A stretch of DNA of 64,000 nt from Prolixibacteraceae bacterium. GTDB taxonomy: Bacteria > Bacteroidota > Bacteroidia > Bacteroidales > Prolixibacteraceae. Position 1 is the stretch's first letter, and each line of letters begins with the position of its first letter. Location: positions 2,106,690 through 2,170,689 of the forward strand of contig CAXXIY010000001.1 of assembly GCA_963675995.2 (NCBI GenBank), written 5' to 3'. A program made the translations under genes and the position numbers. Positions 33,472 to 63,224 of the stretch are shown piece by piece. The notes under the pieces were generated by a model, which saw only the letters and a program-made list of their open reading frames with translations, did not search any database and had not been told where the DNA came from.

Positions 33472-33517
33472 GTTGTCCTGTCAGGTTTCGAACCTGAACT
33501 CTTCTGATCCAGAATCA
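33472..33517 (-). repeat. att direct repeat, left copy (orphan 3' fragment of tRNA-Gln)
   Basis: 46/46 identical to 62951-62996. Similarity to the tRNA stops abruptly at 33518. A terminator-like hairpin (AACACCTACA..TGTAAGTGTT) lies just outside it. Confidence 0.85.
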
Positions 33518-43913: not shown

Positions 43914-44391
43914 TTCAAGTACTGACGGAAGCAGAAGAGCAAGATTAAGCGCCATCAATCAGGTTCTTTCATTACTATTATTTCCACAGGAAAAAAGATG
44001 GGTCCCCTTTACCCCCGGGGGTACCCGCTGACCAGCATGCCTGGTTACAGGAAAGCCGTACTCGGTTCTCTTCCTCGTAAAGGTCTTATTTTTACTTCTA
44101 CTTATTGAATATGATTTAATGGGTTCGTAATGCCGTAATTGATAAATGGACAAGGTCTTAAAATAGGGAGGGTTTCACTTGACAGTTCTTCTGCTCAGCC
44201 GAAAGTAGAATGCACATTATTTCTCCGTATTTAAAATAATTTATTTTTTTGGGGGGGGCTGTTTTTTTTCGATGCCCGGGGGACTTTTACGAACCCTCCG
44301 GAATATTTTTGTTTTCCTTCATGGAGACCAAAGAGAATATTATTGTTTTCCGTAATATAAAATATATAGATAGCTATCTTCTATTGCCTTA

Positions 44392-44520
44392 TGAACACCA
44401 GTTTTTAAGGTATCGAAAGCGTACTCCATTGTTGGCACATTTATGAATTACCCCAACAATTGTATGGTGGCTTCCCTTACCTTTACGCCATGCTAAATAT
44501 ATTATTCCGATCGCTTTAAC
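44392..44520 (-). pseudogene. Degenerate remnant of the 5' end of a HipS-like/HIRAN gene (paralogue of 48520-49173)
   Basis: ~129 nt aligning to 49046-49173 at roughly 90% identity by eye. It translates to VKAIGIIYLAWRKGKGSHHTIVGVIHKCANNGVRFRYLK, then a 1-nt insertion causes a frameshift and stop. Confidence 0.7.
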
Positions 44521-45008
44521 TCTACCGGAGTTTTCATTTTCATTAGGATATGTTGTAAAATTAGCCATCCTTTATTTGAATAGGAAGCATAAACCCGTAG
44601 ATTTTGCATATTTATAGAAAACCTATGGTGAAATTCCGGCTGCGATTCCTGCCGGGGTTGAATATCGTGTTGCAATATCTTTTCTATAAACATGTGATGC
44701 CTCAGGCATCTGTAACGAATATTATTCCGGTTCGGTGGCCATGGTTATTTGTCTGTGGCTGGTTTACATCACTATTCTGCCCCTTGTTTCGTCGACGCAT
44801 GCTCCACAACCGCCTTTATAGCAGGTTTTGAGTGGTTTGCGTCTGGTCGATGTAATCTTTCGGGGTATCTCAAATCGGAAACAATTCACGAAGTGTAGTC
44901 CGGAAAGAAGAATACTCAATTTTACACTATCCCTATTTTTTAATTCAGCGAGGTTGACAATTAAGAATTATTTTGTATGTTTGTCAACAAAAAAAACTTA
45001 CTGAAAGG

Positions 45009-46082
45009 ATGGAAAATAATTTTGCCAACAGACTAATTTCAGCTCGTAAAATGGCTGGAATTTCGCTACAAAGTTTAGCCGACAAGCTTAGTAATGTTGT
45101 ATCAAAGCAGTCGCTGAACAAATATGAGCAAGGTAAGATGAGACCCAATAGTGAAGTGGTAATTGCCATTTCCAATATTCTGAATGTGCCGATAAATTAT
45201 TTTTATTCGGAACCAGCAGTTGAGATTAACTTTTTGAATTTGGGATTTAGAAAATATTCTTCAAAGCTTTCACCAACCGAAGAGGAATCAGTAAAGGAAA
45301 AGGCAAAGGAGGCATTCGAAAGGTATTTCGAATTGGATAACGTTCTGAATGTTCAAGATGACAATCAGTATTTTATTTATCCCACCGTTATTAAAACCCC
45401 CGAGGACGCAGAAAATGCGGCTGTTCAACTTCGTAAAGAATGGGATTTGGGTTATGATCCTATTCCTGATGTTGTTGAGATGCTTGAAGATAAGGGCTAT
45501 AAGGTCATTGAAATTGATGCACCAAATTCTTTTGATGGCTTTAAAGCTGATGTCAGTGATAAGAAAGTAATTGTGCTGCGTAAAACCAATCCTGACGATG
45601 ATATTGTGCGGAAAAGATTTACCGCTTTACATGAATTAGCTCATCACGCCTTGACTTTCCCTGAAGATATAAGTGAAAAAGATGAAGAAAAGCTTTGTCA
45701 CGCTTTTGCAAGTGCGTTGTTGTATCCTGCTGAAATGGCAAGAAAAGAGATGCAAAAAGCAAGGTTCCATTTTTATCAATACGAACTTCAGCTTATTAAA
45801 GAAAGATGGGGCATTTCCTTCTCTGCAACGTTTAGTCGCGCCTTGCAATTAGGAATTATTGATAGCAACGTTTACAAAAAATTCAATATTGGTTATCGGG
45901 CAAGGAAATATCATGTGCCAAACAATGAACCCGGACGTTTCCGTGGAAAAGAAAGACCTGTGCGAATGGAGCGCTTGGTTTATGTAGGGTTAGCAAAAGA
46001 AGTTCTGACAATCAATGAAGCTGCCTATTTTGCCGGCATCTCTTCATGGACACTCAGGTCACAAATGAATCAGCTGGTATGA
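45009..46082 (+). CDS. XRE-family HTH fused to ImmA/IrrE-type zinc metallopeptidase
   Basis: N-terminal HTH (LISARKMAGISLQSLADKLSNVVSKQSLNKYEQGKMRP) and the HEXXH motif HELAHHAL. The start is taken at ATG 45009. Confidence 0.8.
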   Translation: MENNFANRLISARKMAGISLQSLADKLSNVVSKQSLNKYEQGKMRPNSEVVIAISNILNVPINYFYSEPAVEINFLNLGFRKYSSKLSPTEEESVKEKAKEAFERYFELDNVLNVQDDNQYFIYPTVIKTPEDAENAAVQLRKEWDLGYDPIPDVVEMLEDKGYKVIEIDAPNSFDGFKADVSDKKVIVLRKTNPDDDIVRKRFTALHELAHHALTFPEDISEKDEEKLCHAFASALLYPAEMARKEMQKARFHFYQYELQLIKERWGISFSATFSRALQLGIIDSNVYKKFNIGYRARKYHVPNNEPGRFRGKERPVRMERLVYVGLAKEVLTINEAAYFAGISSWTLRSQMNQLV

Positions 46083-46576
46083 AGATCGTTATAACAGATG
46101 TCAGTGTGTTCTTCGACTTGTTTCATTTACAGGTGCTTCCAGAGTTTTTTGCTTTGGAACTTGAAATCCACACTACGGACTTTGTTTATAACGAAATAGT
46201 GCACTCAGAGCAGAAAAGTGAGTTCGCGATATTTGAGCAAAGTAAGAAGCTTCATATTATTAAAATAACTCCTGAAGAAGAGGATGATATTCGTGCAATG
46301 AAGCTTTCTCGCTTAAATAAATCTTTTCCTGACCGGACAGTCCTTTGGAAGGCCAAGCAATTTAATTGTGCTTTACTAACCTGTGATAGGACACTTCGGA
46401 AAGAAGCAGAAGGTCAAGGATTAGAGGTGCGTGGCAGTATTTGGGTGATTAGTGAACTGATTTCTAACGGAATTATATCAAAAGGAAAGGGAATTGACTT
46501 GCTGAAGCAAATGAAATTGATAAACCCACGGCTGCCGTTGGATGAAATAGATAAGTTGATTAAAAGGCATAAATAA
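46079..46576 (+). CDS. PIN-like nuclease-domain protein (DUF4411-like partner of ImmA)
   Basis: The ATG at 46079 overlaps the ImmA stop (ATGA). The N-terminus MKIVITDVSVFFDL has a PIN-type acidic start, with a later LLTCD acidic motif. ImmA+PIN-like pairing is a recurrent two-gene arrangement. Confidence 0.5.
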   Translation: MKIVITDVSVFFDLFHLQVLPEFFALELEIHTTDFVYNEIVHSEQKSEFAIFEQSKKLHIIKITPEEEDDIRAMKLSRLNKSFPDRTVLWKAKQFNCALLTCDRTLRKEAEGQGLEVRGSIWVISELISNGIISKGKGIDLLKQMKLINPRLPLDEIDKLIKRHK

Positions 46577-47129: not shown

Positions 47130-48473
47130 TGTAGAAGTTTAGACTTCGTCTGACAGTAGGGATATTTTTGAGTTAATAATTCAATGCGTTTTTTAAGGCA
47201 TCTTCTCCCGGAATGATATGCTGGATTTGGGGGCCATTAATGCCCCCGTGACCATTCCAGTCGGACAGGATATTCCTATCAGGTTGGTCGCCACCAGAGC
47301 CTGGTTCCGCTTCTCCTGTCAGGTATAAAGATACATCTTTTTGAAATTGAGTATCCAGCATTTTACTTTTTGTCAGGTGAAGTGTCTCATTCCATGTTTG
47401 CCACGGTGTTTTACCAAAACAGTACTTCCCGGAATGAGGACGTTCTTTGTTATAATGATCAAGCCAAAGATCCACATCTATCTGTAGATCAACTATGGAG
47501 CTGTAAATTTTTTTCCGAAAAGCTACCGCATAAAACTCTTCTTGCATCGTTTTGTGGAATCGTTCACAAATTCCATTTGTCTGCGGATGCCTTGCTTTGG
47601 TTCGTGTATGATCGATGTCTTCTATTGCCAGGTATAATTGGTATTCATGATGTTCACGTGCTCCGCAATATTCGGTTCCCCGATCAGTTAAGATCCTTAG
47701 CAGTGGAATTTTACTTTCTTCATACATTGGCAATACCCTGTCATTAAGCATATCTGCGGCAACAAGGGCATTTTTACGATCGTACAATTTAGCCTGGGCA
47801 ACTTTAGTGTAAGTATCAATAAATGTTTGCTGATATATCCGACCAACACCTTTTATAGTGCCCACATAGTAAGTGTCTTGTGCACCGAGGTATCCTGGAT
47901 GTTGCGTTTCTATCTCACCTTGTGCAAACTTTTCTTCCTTGGCTTTTTCAAGGGCTACAACCTGAGCTTCAGTCAAGACCAATCCATCCTGAGCAGCCCG
48001 TTTTTCAAGCAATTTAAGCCTTTTCTGGAAAGTTTCTACACCATTACGGAGCCAAACACAACGCACTCCTGCAGGGGAAATAAAAACACCTTTCTTCTTC
48101 AATTCGTTCGAGGCACGTTGTTGTCCATAAGCCGGAAAATCAAAGGCAATCTGTTTAACCTGATCTTCAATGGCCTCTTCAATGCGGTTTTTAAGTACTG
48201 GTTTCCTGCGTGAAACCTCATGAAGTGCTAATTCTCCTCCTTTTTCATACAGCTCTCTAAAACGGTAAAAGCTATCACGACTGTAACCGAAGATTTTACA
48301 GGCTTGTGAAACGTTACCTAATTGCTCTGACAAATTGAGCAATCCTAACTTGGTTTTGATTAATTTTACTTCTGTATTCATTTCTGACAGTTTTAGTGGA
48401 TTAAACTTCTTTTTGAATGCAATTACAAAGTTAGTTTAATCCCTGACTGTCAGATTAAGTCGCAACTATTACA
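47130..48473 (-). mobile_element. IS481-family insertion sequence, copy 1 (1344 bp)
   Basis: Imperfect ~32-bp terminal inverted repeats (TGTAGAAGTTTAGACTTCGTCTGACAGTAGGG vs the reverse complement TGTAATAGTTGCGACTTAATCTGACAGTCAGGG). Identical to copy 2 except 47542 T vs 57567 C. No flanking direct repeat is visible. Confidence 0.85.
47173..48381 (-). CDS. IS481-family DDE transposase
   Basis: N-terminal HTH (VSQACKIFGYSRDSFYRFRELYEKGG) and an rve-type integrase core (..LTDRGTEYCG..., ERFHKTMQEEF). Confidence 0.85.
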   Translation of the reverse strand: MNTEVKLIKTKLGLLNLSEQLGNVSQACKIFGYSRDSFYRFRELYEKGGELALHEVSRRKPVLKNRIEEAIEDQVKQIAFDFPAYGQQRASNELKKKGVFISPAGVRCVWLRNGVETFQKRLKLLEKRAAQDGLVLTEAQVVALEKAKEEKFAQGEIETQHPGYLGAQDTYYVGTIKGVGRIYQQTFIDTYTKVAQAKLYDRKNALVAADMLNDRVLPMYEESKIPLLRILTDRGTEYCGAREHHEYQLYLAIEDIDHTRTKARHPQTNGICERFHKTMQEEFYAVAFRKKIYSSIVDLQIDVDLWLDHYNKERPHSGKYCFGKTPWQTWNETLHLTKSKMLDTQFQKDVSLYLTGEAEPGSGGDQPDRNILSDWNGHGGINGPQIQHIIPGEDALKNALNY

Positions 48474-48519: not shown

Positions 48520-49173
48520 TTAATAAGATATTTCAATAAATACCCTATTGATCGTGCCGTTTTGGTCGATACTTTTTACTTTGATTTGAAGTGGGAACTT
48601 GGTTTTATGAAATACTATTGAATGAACTATCTTCACGTAGCCTATAACTTGTTCTCCCTTTTTTACCTTAACGGCAAATTTATCGTATTGATTTCCACTC
48701 TCAAGCAGATAGTTCAATTTCTCGCCAACAGATAGTGTGCCTGGCTGTAATTTTCGATGTGAAAGGCCGCAAATCTCACTTACAAATTTTAAATCTTTAA
48801 TTGGATGGAAATCGGCTAAAAATTCAAAATTGTCGTTAGACAGCATTCCCTGAGTATAAGCCAAAAGGTAAAACTTATCTTCCTTATGTTTCGAATCAAT
48901 GTCCCAAAAGTCAAGATAACGCTGAATGTCTGATCGTTCAGTTTTTATAAGGCGTTGTCCAAAAATCTCAAGTACATTATCAGTATAAGTTCTTTCAATT
49001 TCCGGAAAATCAACATACGGAGAAAATCCGTCTTCCATCGCTTTGTGAACGCCAGTTTTAAGGTATTGAAAGCGTACTCCATTGGTGGCACTTTTGTGAA
49101 TTGCCCCAACAATTGTACGGCGGCTTCCCTTACCCTTGCGCCATGCTAAATATATTTTCCCGATCGCTTTCAC
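48520..49173 (-). CDS. HipS-like N-terminal domain fused to C-terminal HIRAN domain (putative antitoxin/sensor partner of the kinase)
   Basis: GTG start overlapping the kinase stop (GTGA). The C-terminal LNYLLESGNQYDKFAVKVKKGEQVIGYVK fits the HIRAN consensus (EP.N.yD.nAi.V....g..iGYv). The N-terminal ~130 aa resembles the HipA N-subdomain/HipS. Confidence 0.6.
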   Translation of the reverse strand: MKAIGKIYLAWRKGKGSRRTIVGAIHKSATNGVRFQYLKTGVHKAMEDGFSPYVDFPEIERTYTDNVLEIFGQRLIKTERSDIQRYLDFWDIDSKHKEDKFYLLAYTQGMLSNDNFEFLADFHPIKDLKFVSEICGLSHRKLQPGTLSVGEKLNYLLESGNQYDKFAVKVKKGEQVIGYVKIVHSIVFHKTKFPLQIKVKSIDQNGTINRVFIEISY

Positions 49174-50201
49174 CCAATCAAAGTTATCAATTTTTGAGCC
49201 CGCAAAACTATCAATTTTAAAATAAAATCCTTCCTCTCCTGCGGTAATTTGTGTTTTTCAAGTGCATAAGGTAATTCTAAATCAATATTGTCGATGCAAT
49301 TCTTAATTTTTACTTCATTAAACTTTACTTTTACCCTACCAATAATGCGTTTAACAACTTCAGGATATAAGTTGTTTACATTTTTTATGAGTTCAAAATG
49401 ACTAATTTTCTTTCCTTCCCAATGGATCTCCGATAATCCTCTATTAATCGCGTAAGCATTCATCATTAATTCATCGACAATCATTTTATTCATTTTTACA
49501 TCATCAATTTCGCGTCCCAAACAACTTCCGCTATCATAGATTTGAGAAAACCGACCGGGCATTTTAAGACTAATTTCCTTGATCATCTGGGATGTTATTT
49601 CTGGTTTAATTTTAGAGGTAATCCCCATTATTGAAAATAAAGTTTTAATCTTGCCCTTAGATGCAGCTTGTTCCAGAATTTTAATAACCTCGTTGTATTC
49701 GGTAATAATTCCCCAATTTTCCTGATGCCTGTCGCTATTCCCGATTAGGCTGTCAAGAATAATAATCTCAATGATTTTTTCGACATAATGATCAAGGTGA
49801 TAGAATTTTAATGCGTCACTGATAAGTTGAAAAGTGTATTGCTTTTTTGACTCTTTGTCTTCAGGATCGTATGTTGTATCAAATCCTGTCAGATATTTAA
49901 TTCCTTCGTTGAGCGTGTCTTTGCCCATTGTGACCATCGATTTTGAAAGGCACCCAATCTGCCCATTATTAAAGGCAATGTCGTAGGTAAGCATGTTAAA
50001 TCCAAAAAGCTTACCAATTTCGCTAGCAATAATCTCTGACCAAAATTCGTGCTTATAATCCTTTTTCTCCCTTTTCAAAGATGTTTTAAAGTAATAAGCT
50101 GAATGATCTGCTGGGTTCTCAACAATCACTTTATCTCGGGTTCCACCTGTTTGAAACCACGTCCGTTCATTCCATCCCGATATGTCGTGAAACTTTGCCA
50201 T
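49170..50201 (-). CDS. HipA-like Ser/Thr kinase (short form lacking the HipA N-terminal subdomain)
   Basis: Catalytic-loop motif LIGNSDRHQENWG (HipA-type D-x-H-x-x-N) and a downstream IYDSGS Mg-binding-like motif. At 343 aa it is about 100 aa shorter than E. coli HipA. Confidence 0.75.
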   Translation of the reverse strand: MAKFHDISGWNERTWFQTGGTRDKVIVENPADHSAYYFKTSLKREKKDYKHEFWSEIIASEIGKLFGFNMLTYDIAFNNGQIGCLSKSMVTMGKDTLNEGIKYLTGFDTTYDPEDKESKKQYTFQLISDALKFYHLDHYVEKIIEIIILDSLIGNSDRHQENWGIITEYNEVIKILEQAASKGKIKTLFSIMGITSKIKPEITSQMIKEISLKMPGRFSQIYDSGSCLGREIDDVKMNKMIVDELMMNAYAINRGLSEIHWEGKKISHFELIKNVNNLYPEVVKRIIGRVKVKFNEVKIKNCIDNIDLELPYALEKHKLPQERKDFILKLIVLRAQKLITLIG

Positions 50202-50239
50202 AAGCTCATTCTTTATTCCGGTTCTGCGGCCAAATTCAT

Positions 50240-52000
50240 TTACCCGTTGGTTGTTGCATAACCCACCTTGTCCGCAGGGTTCTTAACCAGCGCTTGCTCC
50301 ACCACCGCCCCGGCTAGCAGGTTCTGGGTGGTTTGGGCCTGATTGATACATTCTTTCAACGCATCGCAAAGGGCAAACAATTCATCCACTTTGGCTACAA
50401 TGCGGTGCTGCTCGGCGAGAGGGGGTAGAGGAATACAGGAACTTTCAATTCTATGAAGTGCTAACTTTGGTTGTGCAAGTTGTTTCGTTTTCTCAATAAA
50501 TTGATCTTGCAACATTTCGCTTGATAAAGTCTTTTGAAGCCAAGTTTTGTTAATCTCTTGAAACACAATTTTAGCTGCATTTTCTGTCAACTGCATTCCA
50601 TCAAAATATTCAGGTACTATACCAACATCTCCAATTGTACCAGCAATAGTAATATATAGATCATTTTTGCTGATAGTATATCTTGAAATTTCTGATTGGG
50701 TTTCCTTAGAAACGTACTTTAAATTGTCGCATAAGATTGTCCCATTCTTCATATTAGTTACTTGTACATAAATATACGGCGTTTCTGTCATTGAGAAAGA
50801 ATGCCCACTTGGAAGCCTTTTCCCTCCTTTTATTTCACTAAATGATCCGAGTCTCGTCCATTCCCATCCTTTCGGTAACTCAAACGGTTTTTTGTCATTA
50901 GTAATTTCAGGGAGCGGGTCTTGTTTTTTGATTTTACCTTCTTTGACCAGTTGTGCCTTTTCTTTGGCAATCTTCTTCAGCAGTTCGCTGGCGCGTTCGT
51001 CGTTTGGGTCTTGCGGTACGAGTTTGCCCATTACGGCCAGTTGGAGAATGGTTTGCTTGAGTTGGTCGATGCAGTATTCGGTGGTGAATAAGGTGTCGAA
51101 ATGGCTGGCAATGCGCTGCCAGGCTTCTTCCAGTTCGGCTGGACTGGCGGCACTGGTTAACGCACCAAGCAAAAGTTCTACTAAGGTTTGGTGGGCGGCA
51201 TTGCTTTCAGTTTGTTGCTGCTCCAGTTGGTCGCACAAGGCCATCAGTTCGTCTACTTTGGCAACAATGCGTTGCTGCTCGGCCAGAGGAGGAAGAGGAA
51301 TGACCAATTTTTCCATTCTTTCCTTTGTCATATGGATCATTGCTATACCGTTTCCTGATGCTTTTATCTTTTGTGTTATCGAAGATAAATATTGGTACAT
51401 GAACATTTTATCAAAAGAGGTCACATCAAAAAAATCTAATTTCCAAATATGGTAATGATATATTACTTTTCCTCCATCCCAAATAAATGGTCCAAATGAA
51501 GCAGACCAAGAATAAATTAAATCACCACTGTCAATATACTTTTCAGGTTCTAATTCCAAATCTGAATAATACCATTCATTAGAAGTAAAAAGATTACCCA
51601 CTCTCAAAAGAGGAGTTCCTTCCTGCAACATTTCATGTATTTTATATGCGCGGCCATTTATTACTTGCAAAACGTTTCCTAATCGTGCAAAAGACCATCC
51701 GGAAGGTACATTTTCAGGTTTATCATCATCTGCAATTTCGGGTAAAGGAGCTTGTTTCTTGATTTTTCCTTCTTTGATTAACCGCTTCTTTTCGGCTTCA
51801 ATCTTTTTCAGGAGAACGCTGGCAGGTTCATCTTTGGGGTCTTGTGGTACGAGTTTGCCGCGCACGGCCAGTTCCAAAATCAGCTCGCGAAGTTTCTGTA
51901 TGCCCAGCAAACTTTGGTTGTTTGCCCGTATGCCACGCCCGCTGGTTTTCAGGGTTTGTGCGGTTGTCCAGGTATCGAAAGTGTTTATAATTGTGTTCAT
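50240..52000 (-). CDS. hsdS: Type I restriction-modification specificity subunit
   Basis: Two target-recognition halves, each followed by the conserved helix LPPLAEQ(Q/H)RIVAKVDEL(M/F)ALCD. A duplicated LAV(R/M)GKLVPQDP..KEGKIKKQ.PLPEI segment precedes each half. Confidence 0.9.
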   Translation of the reverse strand: MNTIINTFDTWTTAQTLKTSGRGIRANNQSLLGIQKLRELILELAVRGKLVPQDPKDEPASVLLKKIEAEKKRLIKEGKIKKQAPLPEIADDDKPENVPSGWSFARLGNVLQVINGRAYKIHEMLQEGTPLLRVGNLFTSNEWYYSDLELEPEKYIDSGDLIYSWSASFGPFIWDGGKVIYHYHIWKLDFFDVTSFDKMFMYQYLSSITQKIKASGNGIAMIHMTKERMEKLVIPLPPLAEQQRIVAKVDELMALCDQLEQQQTESNAAHQTLVELLLGALTSAASPAELEEAWQRIASHFDTLFTTEYCIDQLKQTILQLAVMGKLVPQDPNDERASELLKKIAKEKAQLVKEGKIKKQDPLPEITNDKKPFELPKGWEWTRLGSFSEIKGGKRLPSGHSFSMTETPYIYVQVTNMKNGTILCDNLKYVSKETQSEISRYTISKNDLYITIAGTIGDVGIVPEYFDGMQLTENAAKIVFQEINKTWLQKTLSSEMLQDQFIEKTKQLAQPKLALHRIESSCIPLPPLAEQHRIVAKVDELFALCDALKECINQAQTTQNLLAGAVVEQALVKNPADKVGYATTNG

Positions 52001-52043
52001 GTTTTTGTTTTAAAATTTCGCGGTTACAAACCGTGATACCCAA

Positions 52044-52140
52044 ATCCGCGAATCGGAATTCGCGACACCCAGCAACACCCGGGTGATGCGGTTTTTAACC
52101 TCATTTTTAGATTATCCGCGAATCGGAATCCGCGGCACCC
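52044..52140. repeat. Two copies of a 27-nt palindromic element at the hsdM 3' end and in the hsdM-hsdS spacer
   Basis: ATCCGCGAATCGGAATTCGCGACACCC (52044-52070) and ATCCGCGAATCGGAATCCGCGGCACCC (52114-52140). Each contains a CGCGAAT..ATTCGCG-type hairpin. The second encodes the last residues of HsdM. Confidence 0.7.
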
Positions 52141-53591
52141 AATGCTTCGCTTAAAATGGATTTCAACTGGTTGCGCAAACTGCCGATGCTTTTTTGCTGC
52201 TGTTCGTATTTCCGAAGCAATTCATCGGGGTCGTGGCTCACCTGTTCGCCCACATGCGGGTTCTTCATGTCTAGGTTATAGTTCCGGGCTTTTATGTCTT
52301 CCAGCGAAACTTTCCATGCCTGTTCGTTTTCAACCCTTGCTGCAAAACCATCGGCTTCGGTTCCCCACCAGTCCATTTCTGGCTTAAACTCTTCGAAACG
52401 CATGGGTTTGGTTTTGTTGTAGCTTTTCACCCCTTCAGGATACGGGTGTTCGTAATACCAAACCGTTTCGGTGGACTTGCCTTTGGTAAAAAACAGCAGG
52501 TTGGTTTTTATGCCGGTGTACGGACTAAACACGCCGTTTGGCAAGCGGACAATGGTATGCAGGTTACACTCTTCGAACAGCTTTTCTTTGATGCGGGTTT
52601 TAATGCCTTCGCCAAACAGGAACCCGTCGGGCAATACGAGTGCCGCACGCCCATTGGGTTTCAGCAGATGAATGATGAGCGTGAGGAACAAATCGGCGGT
52701 TTCGCGGGTGCGGAAGGTGGCAGGAAAGTTATTCTCGATGCCGTCTTCTTCCATTCCCCCAAATGGCGGATTGGTCACAATTACATGCACCCGGTCTTTG
52801 GGTCCGTAGTCGCGCAAAGGGCGACTCAACGTGTTATCGTGCCGGATGTTTGTAGGTGAATCGATGCCATGCAAAATCATGTTGGTGGTGCAAAGCATGT
52901 GTGGCAAAGTCTTCTTTTCCACGCCATGAACCGTACTTTGAAGCAGCTCTTCGTCAGCAGCCGTATGAACGAAATGTTCGCGTTTGAATTCTATCACATT
53001 CGAAAGAAAACCACCGGTTCCGCAAGCCGGGTCGAGTACGATTTCATCCAGTTGCGGCGCTACCCGGTCAACGATAAGCGTAGTAACGGCCCGGGGTGTG
53101 TAAAATTCACCGGCATTTCCGGCGCTCTGTAAATCCTTCAGTATTTGTTCGTAAATGTTACCGAACGTGTGGCGGTCGTCTTTGGTGTTGAAATCAATTT
53201 CGCTGATTTTGTTGATCACCTGTCGCATCAGGGTGCCCGATTTCATGTAGTTGTAGGCATCTTCGAATACATTGTGAACAACCTGGGCACGCTTATTTTG
53301 CAGGTTCAGCTTATCTTTCAGGGTTGGAAACAGTTGCAGGTTCACAAAATCCGAGAGTTCGTCGCCTGTCATTCCTTCGGAGTCGGCAGCCCAGTTTCGC
53401 CACCGCAAATGTTCGGGCAGCGGCGATTTATAGTTGTCTTCGGTCAGCTCCAGTTCGGCTTCGCGGTCGTCAAATATCTTTAAAAAGAACATCCACACCA
53501 ATTGACTGATTCGTTGGGCATCACCATCGACACCCACGTCTTTTCGCATAATATCCTGAATGGACTTAATTATGCCTGATACATTGCTCAT
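52107..53591 (-). CDS. hsdM: Type I restriction-modification N6-adenine DNA methyltransferase subunit
   Basis: HsdM N-terminal domain, AdoMet motif (LDPACGTGGFL) and catalytic NPPFGG. A 4-nt overlap with hsdR. Confidence 0.92.
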   Translation of the reverse strand: MSNVSGIIKSIQDIMRKDVGVDGDAQRISQLVWMFFLKIFDDREAELELTEDNYKSPLPEHLRWRNWAADSEGMTGDELSDFVNLQLFPTLKDKLNLQNKRAQVVHNVFEDAYNYMKSGTLMRQVINKISEIDFNTKDDRHTFGNIYEQILKDLQSAGNAGEFYTPRAVTTLIVDRVAPQLDEIVLDPACGTGGFLSNVIEFKREHFVHTAADEELLQSTVHGVEKKTLPHMLCTTNMILHGIDSPTNIRHDNTLSRPLRDYGPKDRVHVIVTNPPFGGMEEDGIENNFPATFRTRETADLFLTLIIHLLKPNGRAALVLPDGFLFGEGIKTRIKEKLFEECNLHTIVRLPNGVFSPYTGIKTNLLFFTKGKSTETVWYYEHPYPEGVKSYNKTKPMRFEEFKPEMDWWGTEADGFAARVENEQAWKVSLEDIKARNYNLDMKNPHVGEQVSHDPDELLRKYEQQQKSIGSLRNQLKSILSEALGAADSDSRII

Positions 53592-55939
53592 GCTAATTTT
53601 TCCTGATTAAATAGTTCGTGTTCCAATTCCTGAAGGGCTTTGTCGTAGTTGGCTTTCCCTCCAAAGACCTGATTGATAATTTCCATTGGAGTACCCATTT
53701 CGCTGAAAGGTTTTAATTTCAGGATTTTGGTGTCTTCAATCGAAGTAATTCCTTTGTCGGCGTATTTGTCCAGCAGACTGTTTAAAATGGCTCTGGCCTG
53801 TTCGCCGTATTTGGTAAAATAATTTCTCTTTTTCACGTTATTTGCCCGCTCTTTTCGGGTCAGCGGTGGCTGATCGAAAGCGATGTGGCAAATTAAGTCA
53901 AAATCACCGTAATCTTTCCCGATTTCTTCCGCCAGATTTTCCAAAATGATGCCGTGTTCTTCCAGCATTTCAATAATCGCCTGCTTCTTTTTGGTCTTGT
54001 TCCACGATTTCAAAAAGTCGTTCAGTGTTGCAAACTCGGTCTGAACCTGTTTGCGTGTAAAGTCGCGGTACGACTCGGTGATCAATTGTCCGTTGTCGCC
54101 GTAATATTCAATTCGTTCGGCTACAATTCTCGCCGGAACACCACTGACATATACTTTCCGGCTTCCGGTTTGTTCTTCTTCATCCTCACCTTCGCCGTCA
54201 TCGTCCGGGTCTTCAGGATCGGGAGGCACAGGGTCGTCATCGTCACCGGGTTCATAAATCACTACCGGATCGCCATCAAAATCAGGATCGCGAAACAATT
54301 CGGTCGCCTTTTTGAAATCCATGATAGTAAAGAACATTTTGCCAAAATCTTCTTCAATGCGGGTTCCACGACCAATAATTTGTTTAAAAGTGGTCATCGA
54401 ACGGATGGTTTTATCCAGCACAATCACCTTACAGGTTTTGGCATCTACGCCTGTGGTCATCAGTTCCGAAGTGGTTGCAATTACCGGAAATTTACTTTCC
54501 GGGTCAATGAAATTATCCAGTTCAGCTTTCCCTTCCACACTGTCGCCTGTAATTCGCATCACGTATTTAGGGTTATCGGTAGCCAGTTTTCCGGCAGCGT
54601 TTACAATGGCAACGCGCATTCGTTCAGCATGGTCAATATCTTCGCAGAAAATAATTGTTTTTGAGAATGGGTCGGTGGCAAACAACAGTTTCATTACCCG
54701 CCCTGCCACCAGTTTAGTACGTTGATTCAGCACCAGAATCCGATCCATGTCTGCCTGATTGTAAGTGCGTTCTTCAATCTCCTGCCCTAAATCATCTTTC
54801 ATTCCGGGTGGAGGAGTCCAACCTTCAATGTCCTTGTCAATATCAATTCGGACTACTTTGTAGGGTGCCAGAAAACCATCCGCAATTCCTTGTTTCAGGC
54901 TGTAAGTATAAACCGGTTCGCCAAAGTAGGTAATGTTCGAAACGTATTTGGTTTCCTTTGGGGTGGCGGTCATACCAATTTGAATGGCATTCGAAAAATA
55001 TTCGAGTATTTCGCGCCAAGAAGCATCATCGGCAGCACTTCCGCGGTGACACTCATCAATCACAATCAGATCGAAAAAGTCAGGAGAAACATTTTTGAAA
55101 ATTTTATCGGCTTCATCGGGGCCGGTTATAGCCTGATATAAACCAAGGTAAATCTCATAAGACGGATCGATTTTCCGGTTCTTTATTTTGGTCATTACTG
55201 AACCGAATGGCTTGAAGTCGTTGATTAACGTTTGATCGGCCAAAATATTTCGGTCAACGAGGAATAAGGTTCTTTTAACCGCTTTGGCCTTCCACAATCG
55301 CCAAATAATTTGAAAAGTGGTATAGGTCTTACCGGTTCCGGTGGCCATTACGAGCAAAATCCTTTTCTCCCCGCGGGCAACGGCTTCAATGGTTCGGTTT
55401 ATTGCTTCCACCTGATAGTAGCGGGGTTCTTTACCCGAGCCATCGGTGTGAAATGGCTGAACTACCAATTTTTCATCTTCAGCCTTAATACCCCGGTACT
55501 GTTTGTATCGTGTCCAAAGTTCATATGGTGAAGGAAAAGCTTCTAACGGGAATTGGGTTTCTATATCATCGCCATCGGCCGGAATTTTATTGTGTGAAGC
55601 GAAAGCATCGCCATTTGAACTAAAAGCACTGGGAACTTCCAAAATATCAGCGTAACCCAAAGCTTGTTGCATTCCATGACTGACCGTGTGATTGTTGTCT
55701 TTGGCTTCAACAACAGCAAGCGGCACACCAGGTTCCCATTGAAGAACATAGTCGGCAAATTTTTTCTTCTTTTTGTTTCTGACTGACATATTGCCGCGCA
55801 CAATGACCGGGCCAGGTGTAAGCGTAACTTCACGCCTGATTTGTGTAGACGGTTCCCAGCCTGCATCTTTAATAGCGGGAGTGATATACAAATCGCAAAT
55901 GTCGATTTCGCTAAGTTCTTTTTTATTGATGTCGGTCAA
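53588..55939 (-). CDS. hsdR: Type I restriction endonuclease/translocase subunit (short, EcoAI/EcoEI-like size)
   Basis: N-terminal PD-(D/E)xK-like region (..VVEAKD..), Walker A MATGTGKT and DEAH-like box IVIDECHRGS. The 783-aa length and C-terminal region are reminiscent of type IB HsdR. Confidence 0.9.
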   Translation of the reverse strand: MTDINKKELSEIDICDLYITPAIKDAGWEPSTQIRREVTLTPGPVIVRGNMSVRNKKKKKFADYVLQWEPGVPLAVVEAKDNNHTVSHGMQQALGYADILEVPSAFSSNGDAFASHNKIPADGDDIETQFPLEAFPSPYELWTRYKQYRGIKAEDEKLVVQPFHTDGSGKEPRYYQVEAINRTIEAVARGEKRILLVMATGTGKTYTTFQIIWRLWKAKAVKRTLFLVDRNILADQTLINDFKPFGSVMTKIKNRKIDPSYEIYLGLYQAITGPDEADKIFKNVSPDFFDLIVIDECHRGSAADDASWREILEYFSNAIQIGMTATPKETKYVSNITYFGEPVYTYSLKQGIADGFLAPYKVVRIDIDKDIEGWTPPPGMKDDLGQEIEERTYNQADMDRILVLNQRTKLVAGRVMKLLFATDPFSKTIIFCEDIDHAERMRVAIVNAAGKLATDNPKYVMRITGDSVEGKAELDNFIDPESKFPVIATTSELMTTGVDAKTCKVIVLDKTIRSMTTFKQIIGRGTRIEEDFGKMFFTIMDFKKATELFRDPDFDGDPVVIYEPGDDDDPVPPDPEDPDDDGEGEDEEEQTGSRKVYVSGVPARIVAERIEYYGDNGQLITESYRDFTRKQVQTEFATLNDFLKSWNKTKKKQAIIEMLEEHGIILENLAEEIGKDYGDFDLICHIAFDQPPLTRKERANNVKKRNYFTKYGEQARAILNSLLDKYADKGITSIEDTKILKLKPFSEMGTPMEIINQVFGGKANYDKALQELEHELFNQEKLA

Positions 55940-56366
55940 AACATAAACGGTTGATTAGGTAAGGTATCTTACTTTAAACTATTTTCAAACTTAACAAATT
56001 ATATTTGTAATATTTTAATTTCTCCAAATTAATTTTTATTGTTCTTAATTTTAAAAACCAACGATCAGGCTCGAAGGGCCTTGGGCTTTGATGGAATTGG
56101 CTATAAAAATCTTGAATGAGAGTAGAATCAATCAGAAGATAATGTAGGTTTAATACTTATTCTGCAACTCAACTTTACAAATCAACTGTGTGGGTGGAAT
56201 ATTTAATGTAATAGCCAGTTTGAAGATGGTTATGATGGTTTGCTGACCTGAGCCACGTTAGAGAACTCGGATACGCCTTGAGATTTCTATAATAAATAGT
56301 GGGAGATTTACAACCTAAACCAAAACATGATTATATTACAATCAATTATTTGATTAAAATGTAACC

Positions 56367-57167
56367 ATGTGTAGAAAATTTGTGATAGTCAGCGAATTCG
56401 AAAAAATTGAAAGACGTTTTAACGTCTCCCTTAGTCCTAATATTGAACCTCTAGCGAAACATTATGCTGTTTCATCAGGCGATAAGTGTTATGTGATCAC
56501 ATGCGAAGATCCAAAGTTATTGCAGGAATTCACCTTCGGCATGACCCCCTTTTATGCTTCCGATCCAATGAATTTAATCACAGCCCGGGCCGAAGGCGAT
56601 AAAAACGGGAATAACGATCCCAATTATAACGGTTCCAGGTCCATTTTTCTTAAAACCCCCTTTAAAAAACCGATCTACTCACAACGTTGTCTGGTCATTG
56701 CCGATGCCTGGTATGAATGGACACCCCGTAAGAAACCCTTTCTATTTCACCTGATCAACAAAAACCGACCCTTCGCATTTGCAGGTATTTACGATTATTG
56801 GAAAAATCCGGATACCAACGAAATCACCACCTCTTTTTCGATCATAACCACGGTGGCAAATCCTTTGATTCAAAGTATAGGGATAAAGCGGTTGCCGGTA
56901 ATACTCTCCAAAATACACGAACAAGCGTGGATAAAATCGTCGAATCACTTATCCGATGTGCTGGTACTACTTAATCCCTATCCAGCCGAAGAGATCAGTT
57001 GTTACCCAGTGTCCGACAGGGTAAATTCACCAGGTGCAAATGACCCTTCACTACTAAATCCATTTGAGGAGAAACCACCGATTAATAGTAATACCACTTT
57101 TGTCCTCCGCAGCCATCGTCAGCCTAAACAGAAAGGCGATCCCGACAGATTATGTGTAGAAGTTTAG
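56367..57167 (+). CDS. SOS-response-associated peptidase (SRAP/YedK family), native C-terminus replaced by IS insertion
   Basis: Starts MCRKF (catalytic Cys2). The last four codons (CVEV) and the stop lie inside the IS481 left end. The pre-insertion reading continues after the IS as ..DRLWFKRN*. Confidence 0.75.
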   Translation: MCRKFVIVSEFEKIERRFNVSLSPNIEPLAKHYAVSSGDKCYVITCEDPKLLQEFTFGMTPFYASDPMNLITARAEGDKNGNNDPNYNGSRSIFLKTPFKKPIYSQRCLVIADAWYEWTPRKKPFLFHLINKNRPFAFAGIYDYWKNPDTNEITTSFSIITTVANPLIQSIGIKRLPVILSKIHEQAWIKSSNHLSDVLVLLNPYPAEEISCYPVSDRVNSPGANDPSLLNPFEEKPPINSNTTFVLRSHRQPKQKGDPDRLCVEV

Positions 57168-58498
57168 ACTTCGTCTGACAGTAGGGATATTTTTGAGTTA
57201 ATAATTCAATGCGTTTTTTAAGGCATCTTCTCCCGGAATGATATGCTGGATTTGGGGGCCATTAATGCCCCCGTGACCATTCCAGTCGGACAGGATATTC
57301 CTATCAGGTTGGTCGCCACCAGAGCCTGGTTCCGCTTCTCCTGTCAGGTATAAAGATACATCTTTTTGAAATTGAGTATCCAGCATTTTACTTTTTGTCA
57401 GGTGAAGTGTCTCATTCCATGTTTGCCACGGTGTTTTACCAAAACAGTACTTCCCGGAATGAGGACGTTCTTTGTTATAATGATCAAGCCAAAGATCCAC
57501 ATCTATCTGTAGATCAACTATGGAGCTGTAAATTTTTTTCCGAAAAGCTACCGCATAAAACTCTTCCTGCATCGTTTTGTGGAATCGTTCACAAATTCCA
57601 TTTGTCTGCGGATGCCTTGCTTTGGTTCGTGTATGATCGATGTCTTCTATTGCCAGGTATAATTGGTATTCATGATGTTCACGTGCTCCGCAATATTCGG
57701 TTCCCCGATCAGTTAAGATCCTTAGCAGTGGAATTTTACTTTCTTCATACATTGGCAATACCCTGTCATTAAGCATATCTGCGGCAACAAGGGCATTTTT
57801 ACGATCGTACAATTTAGCCTGGGCAACTTTAGTGTAAGTATCAATAAATGTTTGCTGATATATCCGACCAACACCTTTTATAGTGCCCACATAGTAAGTG
57901 TCTTGTGCACCGAGGTATCCTGGATGTTGCGTTTCTATCTCACCTTGTGCAAACTTTTCTTCCTTGGCTTTTTCAAGGGCTACAACCTGAGCTTCAGTCA
58001 AGACCAATCCATCCTGAGCAGCCCGTTTTTCAAGCAATTTAAGCCTTTTCTGGAAAGTTTCTACACCATTACGGAGCCAAACACAACGCACTCCTGCAGG
58101 GGAAATAAAAACACCTTTCTTCTTCAATTCGTTCGAGGCACGTTGTTGTCCATAAGCCGGAAAATCAAAGGCAATCTGTTTAACCTGATCTTCAATGGCC
58201 TCTTCAATGCGGTTTTTAAGTACTGGTTTCCTGCGTGAAACCTCATGAAGTGCTAATTCTCCTCCTTTTTCATACAGCTCTCTAAAACGGTAAAAGCTAT
58301 CACGACTGTAACCGAAGATTTTACAGGCTTGTGAAACGTTACCTAATTGCTCTGACAAATTGAGCAATCCTAACTTGGTTTTGATTAATTTTACTTCTGT
58401 ATTCATTTCTGACAGTTTTAGTGGATTAAACTTCTTTTTGAATGCAATTACAAAGTTAGTTTAATCCCTGACTGTCAGATTAAGTCGCAACTATTACA
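57155..58498 (-). mobile_element. IS481-family insertion sequence, copy 2 (1344 bp) with 7-bp target-site duplication
   Basis: Same ends as copy 1. GATTATG is present at 57148-57154 and at 58499-58505. Confidence 0.9.
57198..58406 (-). CDS. IS481-family DDE transposase (identical protein to 47173-48381)
   Basis: The 402-aa translation is identical to copy 1. Confidence 0.85.
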   Translation of the reverse strand: MNTEVKLIKTKLGLLNLSEQLGNVSQACKIFGYSRDSFYRFRELYEKGGELALHEVSRRKPVLKNRIEEAIEDQVKQIAFDFPAYGQQRASNELKKKGVFISPAGVRCVWLRNGVETFQKRLKLLEKRAAQDGLVLTEAQVVALEKAKEEKFAQGEIETQHPGYLGAQDTYYVGTIKGVGRIYQQTFIDTYTKVAQAKLYDRKNALVAADMLNDRVLPMYEESKIPLLRILTDRGTEYCGAREHHEYQLYLAIEDIDHTRTKARHPQTNGICERFHKTMQEEFYAVAFRKKIYSSIVDLQIDVDLWLDHYNKERPHSGKYCFGKTPWQTWNETLHLTKSKMLDTQFQKDVSLYLTGEAEPGSGGDQPDRNILSDWNGHGGINGPQIQHIIPGEDALKNALNY

Positions 58499-62950: not shown

Positions 62951-62996
62951 GTTGTCCTGTCAGGTTTCGAACCTGAACTCTTCTGATCCAGAATCA
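62951..62996 (-). repeat. att direct repeat, right copy (within the intact tRNA-Gln)
   Basis: 46/46 identical to 33472-33517. Confidence 0.85.
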
Positions 62997-63024
62997 GACG
63001 TGTTGCCAATTACACCACAGGACA
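62952..63024 (-). tRNA. tRNA-Gln: tRNA-Gln (anticodon CUG)
   Basis: The reverse complement folds as acceptor TGTCCTG/CAGGACA (U1:A72 as in bacterial tRNA-Gln), D-arm GGTG-TAATTGGCAA-CAC, anticodon stem TCTGA/TCAGA with loop TTCTGGA, and T-arm TCAGG-TTCGAAA-CCTGA. CCA is not encoded. Confidence 0.85.
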
Positions 63025-63224
63025 ATATTTAAAAGCTCAAAATAACAGGTAACTACAACTGGCTTTTGGCTACTTACAGCCGGCTTAAAGCCTTTACATG
63101 ATTGTCATCTATTAAAAACTTTGTTCCGAAAAGGGCAACCTATTTTTGACAGAATCTGCCTGTTCCCAGATGCTAATCGTACAATCTTTAAATGATCTTC
63201 ATTTACGTTACAGAACTTCAGTTG

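What the first reader, a model, noticed from the sequence alone, without database searches (positions are those of the whole stretch)
48520..55939. Type I R-M operon extended by a short HipA-like kinase and a HipS-like/HIRAN partner
On the minus strand the order is hsdR, hsdM (4-nt overlap), hsdS, then the kinase 38 nt later (GNSDRHQENWG catalytic loop). The kinase lacks the HipA N-subdomain. It is translationally coupled (GTGA overlap) to a 217-aa protein whose N-terminal part looks HipS-like and whose C-terminus is a HIRAN domain. HIRAN domains are known to bind DNA 3' ends. Comparative surveys of Hip kinases have, to my recollection, catalogued kinase plus HipS-HIRAN operons, but I know of no experimental function for them. 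I saw no terminator between hsdS and the kinase. By eye the kinase pair is much more AT-rich than hsdRM, which suggests it was grafted onto the R-M operon. My inference is a second-layer defence: the HIRAN sensor detects free DNA ends, from phage genomes or HsdR cleavage products, and releases the kinase toxin to cause abortive infection.
Basis: partly seen in the sequence, partly recalled or inferred. Interest (0 to 1): 0.72.

Follow-up and report, generated by a model that had tools for sequence, protein, structure and literature searches.

The report
HipA-like kinase/HIRAN pair behind R-M operon
A complete type I restriction-modification operon is followed by a two-gene kinase plus DNA-end-binding module, already catalogued as hipIN and as defence candidate PDC-M03 but never tested; this copy is a typical new member, not a new kind of system.

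Summary
The anatomy is as described. On the minus strand lie hsdR, hsdM, hsdS (EcoAI/type IB), then after 38 nt a 343-aa HipA-superfamily kinase that lacks N-subdomain-1. A GTGA overlap couples it to a 217-aa protein with a C-terminal HIRAN fold.

The pair is not new. It is hipIN of Gerdes et al. 2021, who already proposed HIRAN sensing of phage DNA ends leading to kinase activation and abortive infection. It is also PADLOC candidate PDC-M03, defined by embedding in BREX, DISARM or type I R-M systems. I found no experimental test.

My survey of 80 related genomic loci shows:
- HipI and HipN are adjacent in 77 of 78 loci.
- R-M genes lie directly upstream on the same strand in 28 of 57 informative loci and downstream in 0 of 78.
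- The R-M partners fall into about 13 lineages.
- The pair also occurs alone and in prophages between the lysin and the integrase.

AT-richness is a family trait (27 of 27 loci), so it does not show a local graft. The HipS-like claim is only weakly supported.

The locus sits on a ~29.5-kb island integrated in tRNA-Gln, with a decayed second hsdS-hipI-hipN junction nearby. The mechanism remains inferred.

The parts
53588..55939 (-). hsdR, type IB (EcoAI/FtnUII family) restriction subunit, 783 aa, TTG start as listed
   Evidence: NCBIfam NF046051 scores 1150.9 bits against a cut-off of 550. Pfam ResIII, EcoEI_R_C and HSDR_N. PADLOC REase_I.
52107..53591 (-). hsdM, N6-adenine methyltransferase subunit, 494 aa; 4-nt overlap with hsdR
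   Evidence: Pfam N6_Mtase 1.8e-79 and HsdM_N. PADLOC MTase_I 1.4e-247.
50240..52000 (-). hsdS, specificity subunit with two target-recognition domains, 586 aa
   Evidence: Pfam Methylase_S, two stretches, 1.2e-44. PADLOC Specificity_I 1.8e-194, full length. Internal 164-nt repeat D3.
50202..50239 (-). 38-nt hsdS-hipI spacer with no terminator-like and no promoter-like site
   Evidence: Scans. RNA fold z = -0.13. Part of it recurs in the remnant at 44722-44741.
49170..50201 (-). hipI-like short HipA-superfamily Ser/Thr kinase, 343 aa. Gly-rich loop at residues 17-24; catalytic D157, H159, N162; Mg-binding D223. A clade-specific insertion of about 50 aa spans roughly residues 171-220.
   Evidence: PADLOC PDC-M03A 7.7e-57. 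Pfam HipA_C 1.3e-4. Foldseek CtkA 3akk E 2e-7, HipA 4pu4 E 8e-3. PDB profile search CtkA 1.5e-7. Invariant residues. Insertion.
48520..49173 (-). hipN-like partner, 217 aa. N-terminal domain about residues 1-125, putatively HipS-like and kinase-binding. C-terminal HIRAN domain about residues 128-217. GTG start inside a GTGA overlap.
   Evidence: PADLOC PDC-M03B 8.3e-27. Pfam HIRAN. Model pLDDT 88.6. Foldseek HLTF HIRAN 6kcs, 4s0n and 4xzg, probability 1.0.
55986..56030 (-). Candidate operon promoter upstream of hsdR: the best sigma-70-like hit, plus a Bacteroidota-type TAAGTTTG box at 55986-55993
   Evidence: These are consensus matches only, and genome-wide counts are at chance level.
47130..48473 (-). 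IS481-family insertion sequence, copy A (1344 bp, 402-aa transposase). It lies 46 nt downstream of the hipN stop and has no target-site duplication.
   Evidence: NCBIfam transpos_IS481 2.7e-79.
57155..58498 (-). IS481-family copy B (1 mismatch to copy A). It has its own 7-bp duplication GATTATG and cuts the 3' end of the SRAP gene 56367-57167.
44377..44888 (-). Decayed second copy of the hsdS-3'/hipI/hipN-5' junction. hipI is almost entirely deleted and hipN is truncated after about 50 codons.
   Evidence: Window 44377-44540 is 85% identical to 49031-49193 (E 2e-48). Window 44796-44888 is 74% identical to 50291-50384. Window 44722-44741 is 90% identical to 50213-50232. ORF 44389-44568 reads ...VKAIGIIYLAWRKGKGS....
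33472..33517 (.). Left attachment-site repeat of the ~29.5-kb integrated element that carries the locus
   Evidence: 46-bp exact repeat of 62951-62996. Tyrosine integrase 33690-34919 lies next to it.
62951..62996 (.). Right attachment-site repeat, equal to the 3' part of the tRNA-Gln(CTG) gene 62951-63024
44973..46576 (+). Neighbouring RosmerTA-like pair: an HTH plus M78-peptidase RmrA-like gene and a PIN-domain gene. This is defence-island context.
   Evidence: PADLOC RmrA 2.5e-44 and PDC-S70 7.7e-7. Pfam HTH_3, Peptidase_M78 and PIN.

Best explanation
This is a hipIN / PDC-M03-type two-gene module placed at the 3' end of a complete type IB (EcoAI-family) hsdR-hsdM-hsdS operon and probably co-transcribed with it. 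The whole locus is cargo of a ~29.5-kb island integrated in tRNA-Gln.

Proposed mechanism. HipI is a short HipA-superfamily Ser/Thr kinase that acts as a growth-arresting toxin. By analogy with HipA and HipT, it would phosphorylate an essential translation factor such as an aminoacyl-tRNA synthetase. HipN is made by translational coupling. Its N-terminal domain binds the kinase and keeps it off. Its HIRAN domain binds free 3'-OH DNA ends. When such ends accumulate during infection, HipN changes state and the kinase is released, giving dormancy or abortive infection.

The module is functionally autonomous. Its link to R-M is shared transcription and shared carriage in defence cassettes, not a specific protein partnership with the Hsd subunits.

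Shown here: gene anatomy, folds, conserved catalytic residues, obligate pairing, natural fusion, R-M association, and carriage on mobile elements.

Inferred: toxicity, neutralisation by HipN, DNA-end sensing, the kinase target, and the anti-phage phenotype.
For: Identity of the pair:
- PADLOC PDC-M03A 7.7e-57 and PDC-M03B 8.3e-27.
- The architecture matches hipIN of PMC8262856.
- Kinase fold is closest to CtkA, then HipA.
- G20, T21, K24, D157, H159, N162 and D223 are invariant across 26 homologues. D157, H159, N162 and D223 are also retained in Firmicute-phage and Actinobacterial relatives.
- HIRAN fold.

Kinase and HipN work together:
- They are adjacent in 77 of 78 loci.
- The 4-nt overlap occurs in 56 of 77 pairs.
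- P0275 is a 560-aa natural fusion of kinase, N-domain and HIRAN.
- The N-domain is found almost only in HipN-sized proteins, 293 clusters.

Toxin-like behaviour: in the decayed second copy the kinase gene is deleted while the hipN 5' end survives.

Defence context:
- R-M genes lie upstream on the same strand in 28 of 57 loci, against 0 of 78 downstream, Fisher p = 2e-13.
- Of 65 upstream neighbour genes, 13 match Methylase_S, with further type I R subunit, Eco57I, N6_Mtase and N6_N4_Mtase matches.
- In the closest genome relative, a SIR2-like cassette sits between hsdS and hipIN.
- A Rhodococcus plasmid has the pair embedded between hsdS and hsdM.
- Prophage copies lie between the endolysin and the integrase.
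- A RosmerTA-like pair lies nearby.

Autonomy: the R-M partners fall into 13 clusters at 40% identity or more, while the kinases form a single cluster. Half of the loci lack R-M.

Precedent: a HipA-family kinase system, DS-6, gives kinase-dependent phage defence (10.1101/2025.01.08.631726).

Conserved ligand: HipN is more conserved than HipI, 7 versus 38 clusters at 60% identity. This fits a conserved non-protein ligand such as DNA ends.
Against: - No experiment on any hipIN or PDC-M03 pair was found.
- Toxicity and antitoxin function are inferred by analogy.
- Homology of the N-domain to HipS is not significant in my tests.
- HIRAN pocket residues are only partly conserved. N161 is invariant. 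D164 is invariant within the Bacteroidota clade but is Asn in the Rhodococcus relative.
- The kinase model has low confidence over the catalytic loop and the 50-aa insertion, with mean pLDDT 72.
- Co-transcription with hsdS rests only on the absence of motifs, and those scans are at chance level.
- The native 3' end of the operon may have been altered by the IS copy 46 nt downstream.
Confidence: 0.55

Rival explanations
1. HipIN is functionally wired to restriction. The HIRAN domain senses the DNA ends made by the adjacent R-M enzyme, on phage DNA or on under-methylated self DNA. A restriction event is thereby converted into kinase-driven growth arrest, a true second layer that depends on R-M.
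For: - The pair sits only at the 3' side of R-M operons, in 28 of 57 loci against 0 of 78 downstream.
- Intergenic gaps are short or overlapping in many loci.
- The pair is embedded between hsdS and hsdM in Rhodococcus.
- PDC-M03 was defined by embedding in BREX, DISARM or type I R-M systems.
- HIRAN domains bind 3' ends (PMC8262856).
Against: - About half of the homologous loci have no R-M neighbour, for example the Flavobacterium aldehyde-dehydrogenase site.
- Prophage copies stand alone next to the integrase.
- The partner R-M systems are of many unrelated lineages and types. That fits a cassette hotspot as well as it fits coupling.
Confidence: 0.13
2. HipIN is mainly an addiction (post-segregational killing) module. 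It stabilises the R-M cassette or the integrated element and has no role in sensing phage.
For: - Toxin-antitoxin-like architecture with translational coupling.
- The locus is on a 29.5-kb integrative element with IS copies.
- The pair occurs in prophages and on a plasmid.
- TA modules classically stabilise mobile elements (PMC8262856 introduction).
Against: - The pair is very rare on plasmids, 1 of 72,556 records, although Bacteroidota are under-represented there.
- There is no DNA-binding autoregulator of the type II TA kind.
- A HIRAN end-binding domain is hard to explain for pure addiction.
- HipN is more conserved than the kinase, which is unusual for a labile antitoxin.
- The neighbours are specifically defence genes.
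Confidence: 0.15
3. HipI is not a toxin. It is a DNA-end-recruited regulatory kinase. HipN tethers it to breaks, where it phosphorylates repair, restriction-alleviation or phage DNA-end proteins.
For: - HIRAN domains in eukaryotes recruit enzymes to damaged DNA (PMC8262856).
- In Actinobacteria the HipA-HIRAN pair is linked to deoxydinucleotide nucleases (PMC11706625).
- An SRAP gene for abasic-site repair lies beside the operon.
- The natural fusion P0275 would tether the kinase to DNA ends permanently.
Against: - All characterised HipA-family kinases listed in PMC8262856 Table 1 target aminoacyl-tRNA synthetases.
- The validated DS-6 system behaves like a TA defence.
- The kinase gene was selectively lost in the decayed copy.
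Confidence: 0.08

Closest known systems
hipIN modules (HipI kinase plus HipN putative antitoxin), Gerdes, Baerentsen and Brodersen 2021, mBio (PMC8262856)
   Same: - A short Hip kinase lacking N-subdomain-1, followed by a two-domain protein with a C-terminal HIRAN domain.
- Same gene order.
- The same proposed mechanism: DNA-end sensing, then kinase activation, then abortive infection.
   Different: - The published HipI clades are from Actinobacteria, Firmicutes, Proteobacteria and Cyanobacteria, with kinases of 279-321 aa.
- This kinase belongs to a Bacteroidota clade, is 343 aa long, and carries an insertion of about 50 aa between the catalytic loop and the Mg-binding Asp.
- That paper never mentions restriction.
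PADLOC phage defence candidate PDC-M03 (Payne et al. 2024, bioRxiv 10.1101/2024.01.29.577857)
   Same: - Both proteins match its HMMs strongly.
- The candidate was defined by embedding in BREX, DISARM or type I R-M systems.
- It is described elsewhere as HipA plus HIRAN proteins.
   Different: - Here the pair is appended after the last hsd gene rather than nested between hsd genes.
- PDC-M03 is a prediction only and has not been validated.
HipBST (HipT kinase, HipS antitoxin, HipB)
   Same: The kinase lacks N-subdomain-1, and a separate small protein is thought to supply or replace it and neutralise the kinase (PMC8262856).
   Different: - There is no HipB or HTH gene.
- The partner gene lies downstream rather than upstream and carries a HIRAN domain.
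- The N-domain's similarity to HipS or to the HipA N-terminus is not significant in my tests.
PrrC anticodon nuclease within the EcoprrI type Ic R-M locus
   Same: An abortive-infection-type effector genetically tied to a type I R-M operon. PrrC is almost exclusively embedded in type I R-M systems.
   Different: - There is no homology. PADLOC gives no PrrC hit.
- From established literature, not tested here: PrrC is held latent by physical association with the Hsd proteins and is triggered by a phage anti-restriction peptide.
- hipIN occurs with many unrelated R-M lineages, or with none.
DS-6 (DefensePredictor; HipA-family kinase plus a DUF3037/DUF1829 protein)
   Same: A HipA-family kinase system with experimentally shown, kinase-dependent anti-phage activity.
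   Different: The partner protein is different, and it has no HIRAN domain.
Helicobacter pylori CtkA (PDB 3akj, 3akk, 3akl)
   Same: It is the closest solved structure and sequence relative of the kinase: Foldseek E 2e-7 with TM about 0.6, and profile E 1.5e-7.
   Different: CtkA lacks the 50-aa insertion and has no HIRAN partner that I know of.

Membership tests
hipIN / PDC-M03 | Short HipA-superfamily kinase without N-subdomain-1, with the Gly-rich loop near the N-terminus | tested here: met
   HipA_C profile positions 3-147 align to residues 18-168. The QTGGTRDK loop is at residues 17-24. The fold is closest to CtkA and HipA.
hipIN / PDC-M03 | Conserved catalytic motif (D-x-H-x-x-N) and Mg-binding Asp | tested here: met
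   D157, H159, N162 and D223 are invariant in 26 homologues and in cross-phylum relatives. The activation-loop motif was not assessed.
hipIN / PDC-M03 | The downstream gene encodes a protein with a C-terminal HIRAN domain | tested here: met
   Pfam HIRAN in 33 of 33 family members. Foldseek HLTF HIRAN probability 1.0, TM about 0.55 normalised to the target.
hipIN / PDC-M03 | The N-terminal domain of the partner is HipS-like, that is, homologous to HipA N-subdomain-1 | tested here: inconclusive
Foldseek HipA hits have probability 0.57-0.72. No HipS or HipA appears in the PDB profile search or among the 150 best of 293 phmmer hits.
hipIN / PDC-M03 | Match to the family's curated HMMs for both proteins | tested here: met
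   PDC-M03A 7.7e-57, in two stretches split by the insertion. PDC-M03B 8.3e-27.
hipIN / PDC-M03 | Phylogenetic placement inside the HipI subclades of main clade XI | not tested
   The reference sequences of Table S1 were not available to me. The length of 343 aa is outside the published 279-321 aa range because of the insertion.
hipIN / PDC-M03 | The kinase is toxic and is neutralised by the partner; anti-phage phenotype | not testable with these tools
   No experimental report was found.
Type I R-M, family IB (EcoAI) | HsdR of the EcoAI/FtnUII family, together with HsdM and a two-TRD HsdS in one operon | tested here: met
   NF046051 scores 1150.9 bits against a cut-off of 550. N6_Mtase with HsdM_N, and two Methylase_S stretches.
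PrrC-type R-M-guarding abortive-infection system | Homology to the PrrC anticodon nuclease, and nesting between hsd genes | tested here: not met
   No PrrC model was hit. The pair lies after hsdS, not between hsd genes.
HipBST | Tricistronic operon with a HipB HTH protein and an upstream HipS | tested here: not met
   No HTH gene lies in the operon. The partner is downstream and carries HIRAN.
HipL (single-chain kinase, HipS-like and HIRAN) | All three domains in one polypeptide | tested here: not met
   There are two ORFs in different frames with a 4-nt overlap. A fused relative, P0275, exists elsewhere.
Composite transposon (IS481-family copies flanking the operon) | A shared target-site duplication at the outer ends of the two IS copies | tested here: not met
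   Copy B has its own 7-bp duplication. Copy A has none. The outer flanks differ.

The most novel reading that the evidence does not exclude
HipIN could be a restriction-coupled alarm. Its HIRAN domain would read the 3'-OH ends made when the co-transcribed R-M enzyme cuts DNA. This could happen on incoming phage genomes that out-replicate restriction, or on self DNA when methylation fails. The kinase would then switch the cell into dormancy. R-M and HipIN would thus form one two-stage system rather than two neighbours. The clade-specific 50-aa kinase insertion could be part of this control.
Probability: 0.13. Interest if true: 0.75.

Novelty: new member of a known kind. Interest (0 to 1): 0.38.

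Why it matters
HIRAN-linked Hip kinases are widespread. PDC-M03 occurs 684 times in RefSeq according to the supplement of Payne et al. Here I found 953 kinase relatives and 293 N-domain clusters. They have been predicted to be a DNA-end-sensing abortive-infection system since 2021, yet they remain untested.

This locus adds several things:
- A Bacteroidota clade that is absent from the published phylogeny.
- A quantified and strictly one-sided association with R-M operons.
- A natural fusion that argues for direct contact between the kinase and HipN.
- Prophage-borne copies.

These findings help to design the test. They do not change what is already expected of the family.

Tried and rejected
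- **Composite transposon.** The two IS481-family copies do not share an outer target-site duplication.
- **HipS-likeness of the N-domain.**
  - hhalign against the HipA N-terminus was insignificant.
  - A PDB profile search gave only a chance hit.
  - phmmer of residues 1-125 against 1.84 billion representatives returned only HipN-type proteins and one fusion. No HipA- or HipS-sized protein appeared.
- **Internal promoter for hipIN.**
  - Sigma-70-type and terminator scans are at chance level.
  - The Bacteroidota motif TAnnTTTG gives 70 matches against 70 expected. None lies on the minus strand between 50202 and 52000.
  - Two such boxes lie just upstream of the hipN start (49179-49210), but they cannot be told from chance.
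- **A conserved third gene.** Pfam of 71 downstream neighbours found no DEDD nuclease like the actinobacterial diDNase. The only recurring family was DUF6646, at a conserved Flavobacterium site.
- **Genome of origin.** An exact look-up of the kinase found nothing on record. The cluster look-up gave no accession or organism.
- **Plasmid carriage.** One weak hit in 72,556 plasmids.
- **RNA elements.** Rfam finds only the two tRNA-Gln genes.
- **Model of the pair.** This was not possible.

Full report
**Observation.** The ORFs are exactly as described. On the minus strand:
- hsdR is at 53588-55939.
- hsdM is at 52107-53591 and overlaps hsdR by 4 nt.
- hsdS is at 50240-52000, after a 106-nt gap.
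- A 38-nt spacer follows.
- A 343-aa ORF is at 49170-50201, with GNSDRHQENWG at residues 154-164.
- A GTGA overlap leads into a 217-aa ORF at 48520-49173.

The R-M genes form a complete type IB system. HsdR is an EcoAI/FtnUII equivalog, scoring 1150.9 bits against a cut-off of 550. HsdM and a two-TRD HsdS are full length.

No terminator-like site lies between hsdS and the kinase. The junction RNA is no more structured than shuffled sequence. No Bacteroidota-type -7 box lies upstream of the kinase within hsdS. All of these scans are at chance level, so they only fail to contradict co-transcription.

**The two proteins.** The kinase matches Pfam HipA_C weakly, starting at profile position 3, so HipA N-subdomain-1 is absent. 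A profile of 26 homologues hits only H. pylori CtkA among solved structures. The AlphaFold model (pLDDT 72, pTM 0.74) is closest to CtkA, then to Shewanella HipA.

G20, T21, K24, D157, H159, N162 and D223 are invariant across 26 homologues. Compared with Firmicute-phage and Rhodococcus relatives, the Bacteroidota clade has an insertion of about 50 residues between the catalytic loop and the Mg-binding Asp. This segment is modelled with low confidence.

The partner protein models well (pLDDT 88.6). Its C-terminal half is a HIRAN fold:
- HLTF HIRAN and bacterial lp_0118 are hit with probability 1.0.
- Pfam HIRAN matches 33 of 33 family members.

I could not confirm the claimed HipS-likeness of the N-terminal half. 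It rests on the alignment published by Gerdes et al.

**What it is.** Both proteins hit PADLOC PDC-M03A and PDC-M03B at 7.7e-57 and 8.3e-27. PDC-M03 is one of 145 'phage defence candidates'. They were defined by being embedded in BREX, DISARM or type I R-M systems, and they have not been tested (Payne et al. 2024). Another paper describes PDC-M03 as HipA plus HIRAN proteins.

The same architecture is hipIN of Gerdes, Baerentsen and Brodersen 2021 (PMC8262856). It never mentions restriction and lists no Bacteroidota HipI.

A 2025 NAR paper finds the HipA-HIRAN pair next to deoxydinucleotide nucleases in Actinobacteria and calls the link uninvestigated. A different HipA-family kinase system, DS-6, has been validated as kinase-dependent phage defence. 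I found no experiment on hipIN itself.

**Comparative survey.** I took 80 loci from species-representative genomes, mostly Bacteroidota, with 40-76% kinase identity.
- The kinase and HipN are adjacent in 77 of 78 loci.
- They share the same 4-nt overlap in 56 of 77 pairs.
- Among 57 loci with at least 3 kb of upstream sequence, 28 have R-M genes in the same-strand block directly upstream. About 20 of these carry two or more type I subunits.
- None of 78 loci has R-M genes downstream; Fisher p = 2e-13.
- Pfam on 65 upstream neighbours gives 13 Methylase_S matches. It also gives type I R subunit, Eco57I/MmeI-type, N6_Mtase and N6_N4_Mtase matches. Nine aldehyde dehydrogenases mark a conserved Flavobacterium site.

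The R-M partners are unrelated to one another. There are 13 HsdR clusters at 40% identity or more, while all the kinases form a single cluster. The closest kinases sit beside R-M systems only 24-27% identical to this one. In the closest genomic relative, a SIR2-like cassette lies between hsdS and hipIN.

Outside the phylum, a Rhodococcus plasmid has the pair nested between hsdS and hsdM. A C. difficile phage carries it beside its integrase. IMG/VR contigs carry close relatives between an endolysin and an integrase, with no R-M nearby.

So the pair is an autonomous, mobile cassette that lands repeatedly at the 3' end of R-M operons.

**Composition.** The AT-richness is real: GC is 0.347 and 0.370 for the pair, against 0.490 and 0.442 for hsdM and hsdR. 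But it is a family trait. hipIN is AT-richer than the adjacent hsdM/hsdR in 27 of 27 loci and below its locus mean in 73 of 77. Here hsdM is the stronger outlier from the window mean of 0.402. The 'graft' inference therefore does not follow.

**Surroundings.** A 46-bp exact repeat, 33472-33517 and 62951-62996, bounds a ~29.5-kb integrated element. The second copy is the 3' part of tRNA-Gln(CTG). A tyrosine integrase lies at the left end. The cargo includes:
- DUF6371, ArdC-like and RadC-like genes.
- A RosmerTA-like pair.
- The R-M/hipIN operon.
- An SRAP gene.
- Two near-identical IS481-family copies.

IS copy A lies 46 nt after hipN and has no target duplication, so the native operon end may be lost.

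At 44377-44888 there is a decayed, 74-90% identical second copy of the hsdS-3'/hipI/hipN-5' junction. In it the kinase gene is deleted while the hipN start survives. This shows the hsdS-hipIN junction existed twice. It also fits preferential loss of a toxic gene.

**Mechanism.** The best-supported reading is a kinase toxin held off by HipN, whose HIRAN domain senses free 3' ends. The support is indirect:
- The pairing is obligate and translationally coupled.
- P0275 is a 560-aa natural fusion of kinase, N-domain and HIRAN.
- HipN is more conserved than the kinase. This suits a conserved ligand such as DNA ends rather than a fast-evolving phage protein.

Toxicity, neutralisation, ligand, target and phenotype are all inferred.

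The rivals are functional coupling to restriction cleavage, an addiction module for the island, and a non-toxic kinase recruited to DNA ends. None of them is excluded.

**Verdict.** This is a new member of a catalogued but untested candidate defence family. It belongs to a Bacteroidota branch with a distinctive kinase insertion.

Noticed in passing
window 33472-33517 and 62951-62996: A 46-bp exact direct repeat. The second copy is the 3' part of tRNA-Gln(CTG). The repeats bound a ~29.5-kb integrated element with a tyrosine integrase at 33690-34919. A second tRNA-Gln(TTG) gene lies at 63224-63297.
   Followed up: partly
window 44377-44888 (minus strand): A decayed second hsdS-3'/hipI/hipN-5' junction, 74-90% identical to the intact one. 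hipI is almost wholly deleted and hipN is cut after about 50 codons. It lies directly upstream of the RosmerTA-like pair.
   Followed up: partly
window 47130-48473 and 57155-58498: Two IS481-family copies of 1344 bp with 1 mismatch, in direct orientation, bracketing the operon. Copy B has its own 7-bp duplication (GATTATG) and truncates the SRAP gene 56367-57167. Copy A has no duplication, which suggests an IS-mediated rearrangement next to hipN.
   Followed up: partly
window 44973-46576: An HTH plus M78-peptidase gene (PADLOC RmrA 2.5e-44) overlapping a PIN-domain gene (PDC-S70). This is a RosmerTA-like toxin-antitoxin defence pair.
   Followed up: no
window 37750-41425: DUF6371 protein (37750-38781), ArdC-like anti-restriction protein with a zincin domain (39915-40871), and a RadC/JAB-like ORF (40979-41425). 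These are typical cargo of Bacteroidota integrative or mobilisable elements.
   Followed up: no
window 52044-52071 and 52114-52141: A 28-nt direct repeat, 93% identical. One copy is in the 3' end of hsdM and the other in the 106-nt hsdM-hsdS gap. It may be a scar of hsdS cassette exchange.
   Followed up: no
kinase residues ~171-220 (window ~49542-49691): An insertion of about 50 residues between the catalytic loop and the Mg-binding Asp. It is conserved across the Bacteroidota clade but absent from Firmicute-phage, Rhodococcus and CtkA relatives. It is predicted helical with low confidence, and its function is unknown.
   Followed up: partly
P0275 (560 aa, metagenomic): A natural single-chain fusion of a kinase of this clade with the HipN N-domain (residues 339-458) and HIRAN. 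It is HipL-like. It could also be a one-base frameshift artefact, because the two genes normally overlap by 4 nt.
   Followed up: partly
P0378 (292 aa, metagenomic): A protein with an HExxH zincin-like N-terminal region fused to the distal part of the HipN N-domain plus HIRAN. This suggests the HIRAN module can serve other effectors.
   Followed up: no
L001:911-3507: In the closest genomic relative (kinase 76% identical, hsdS fragment 69% identical), three genes sit between hsdS and hipIN: SIR2_2-like, CDC48_N-like and a weak nucleoside deoxyribosyltransferase-like gene. This looks like a defence-cassette hotspot at the end of the R-M operon.
   Followed up: partly
L081 (phage phiCDKH02) and L084-L098 (IMG/VR): hipIN-type pairs are carried by a C. 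difficile temperate phage next to its integrase. Predicted Bacteroidota prophages carry them between a GH108 endolysin and an integrase, the classic moron position.
   Followed up: partly
80 genomic loci (L001-L080): HipN is more conserved than its kinase partner: 7 clusters against 38 at 60% identity or more. This is the reverse of what is usual for antitoxins.
   Followed up: no
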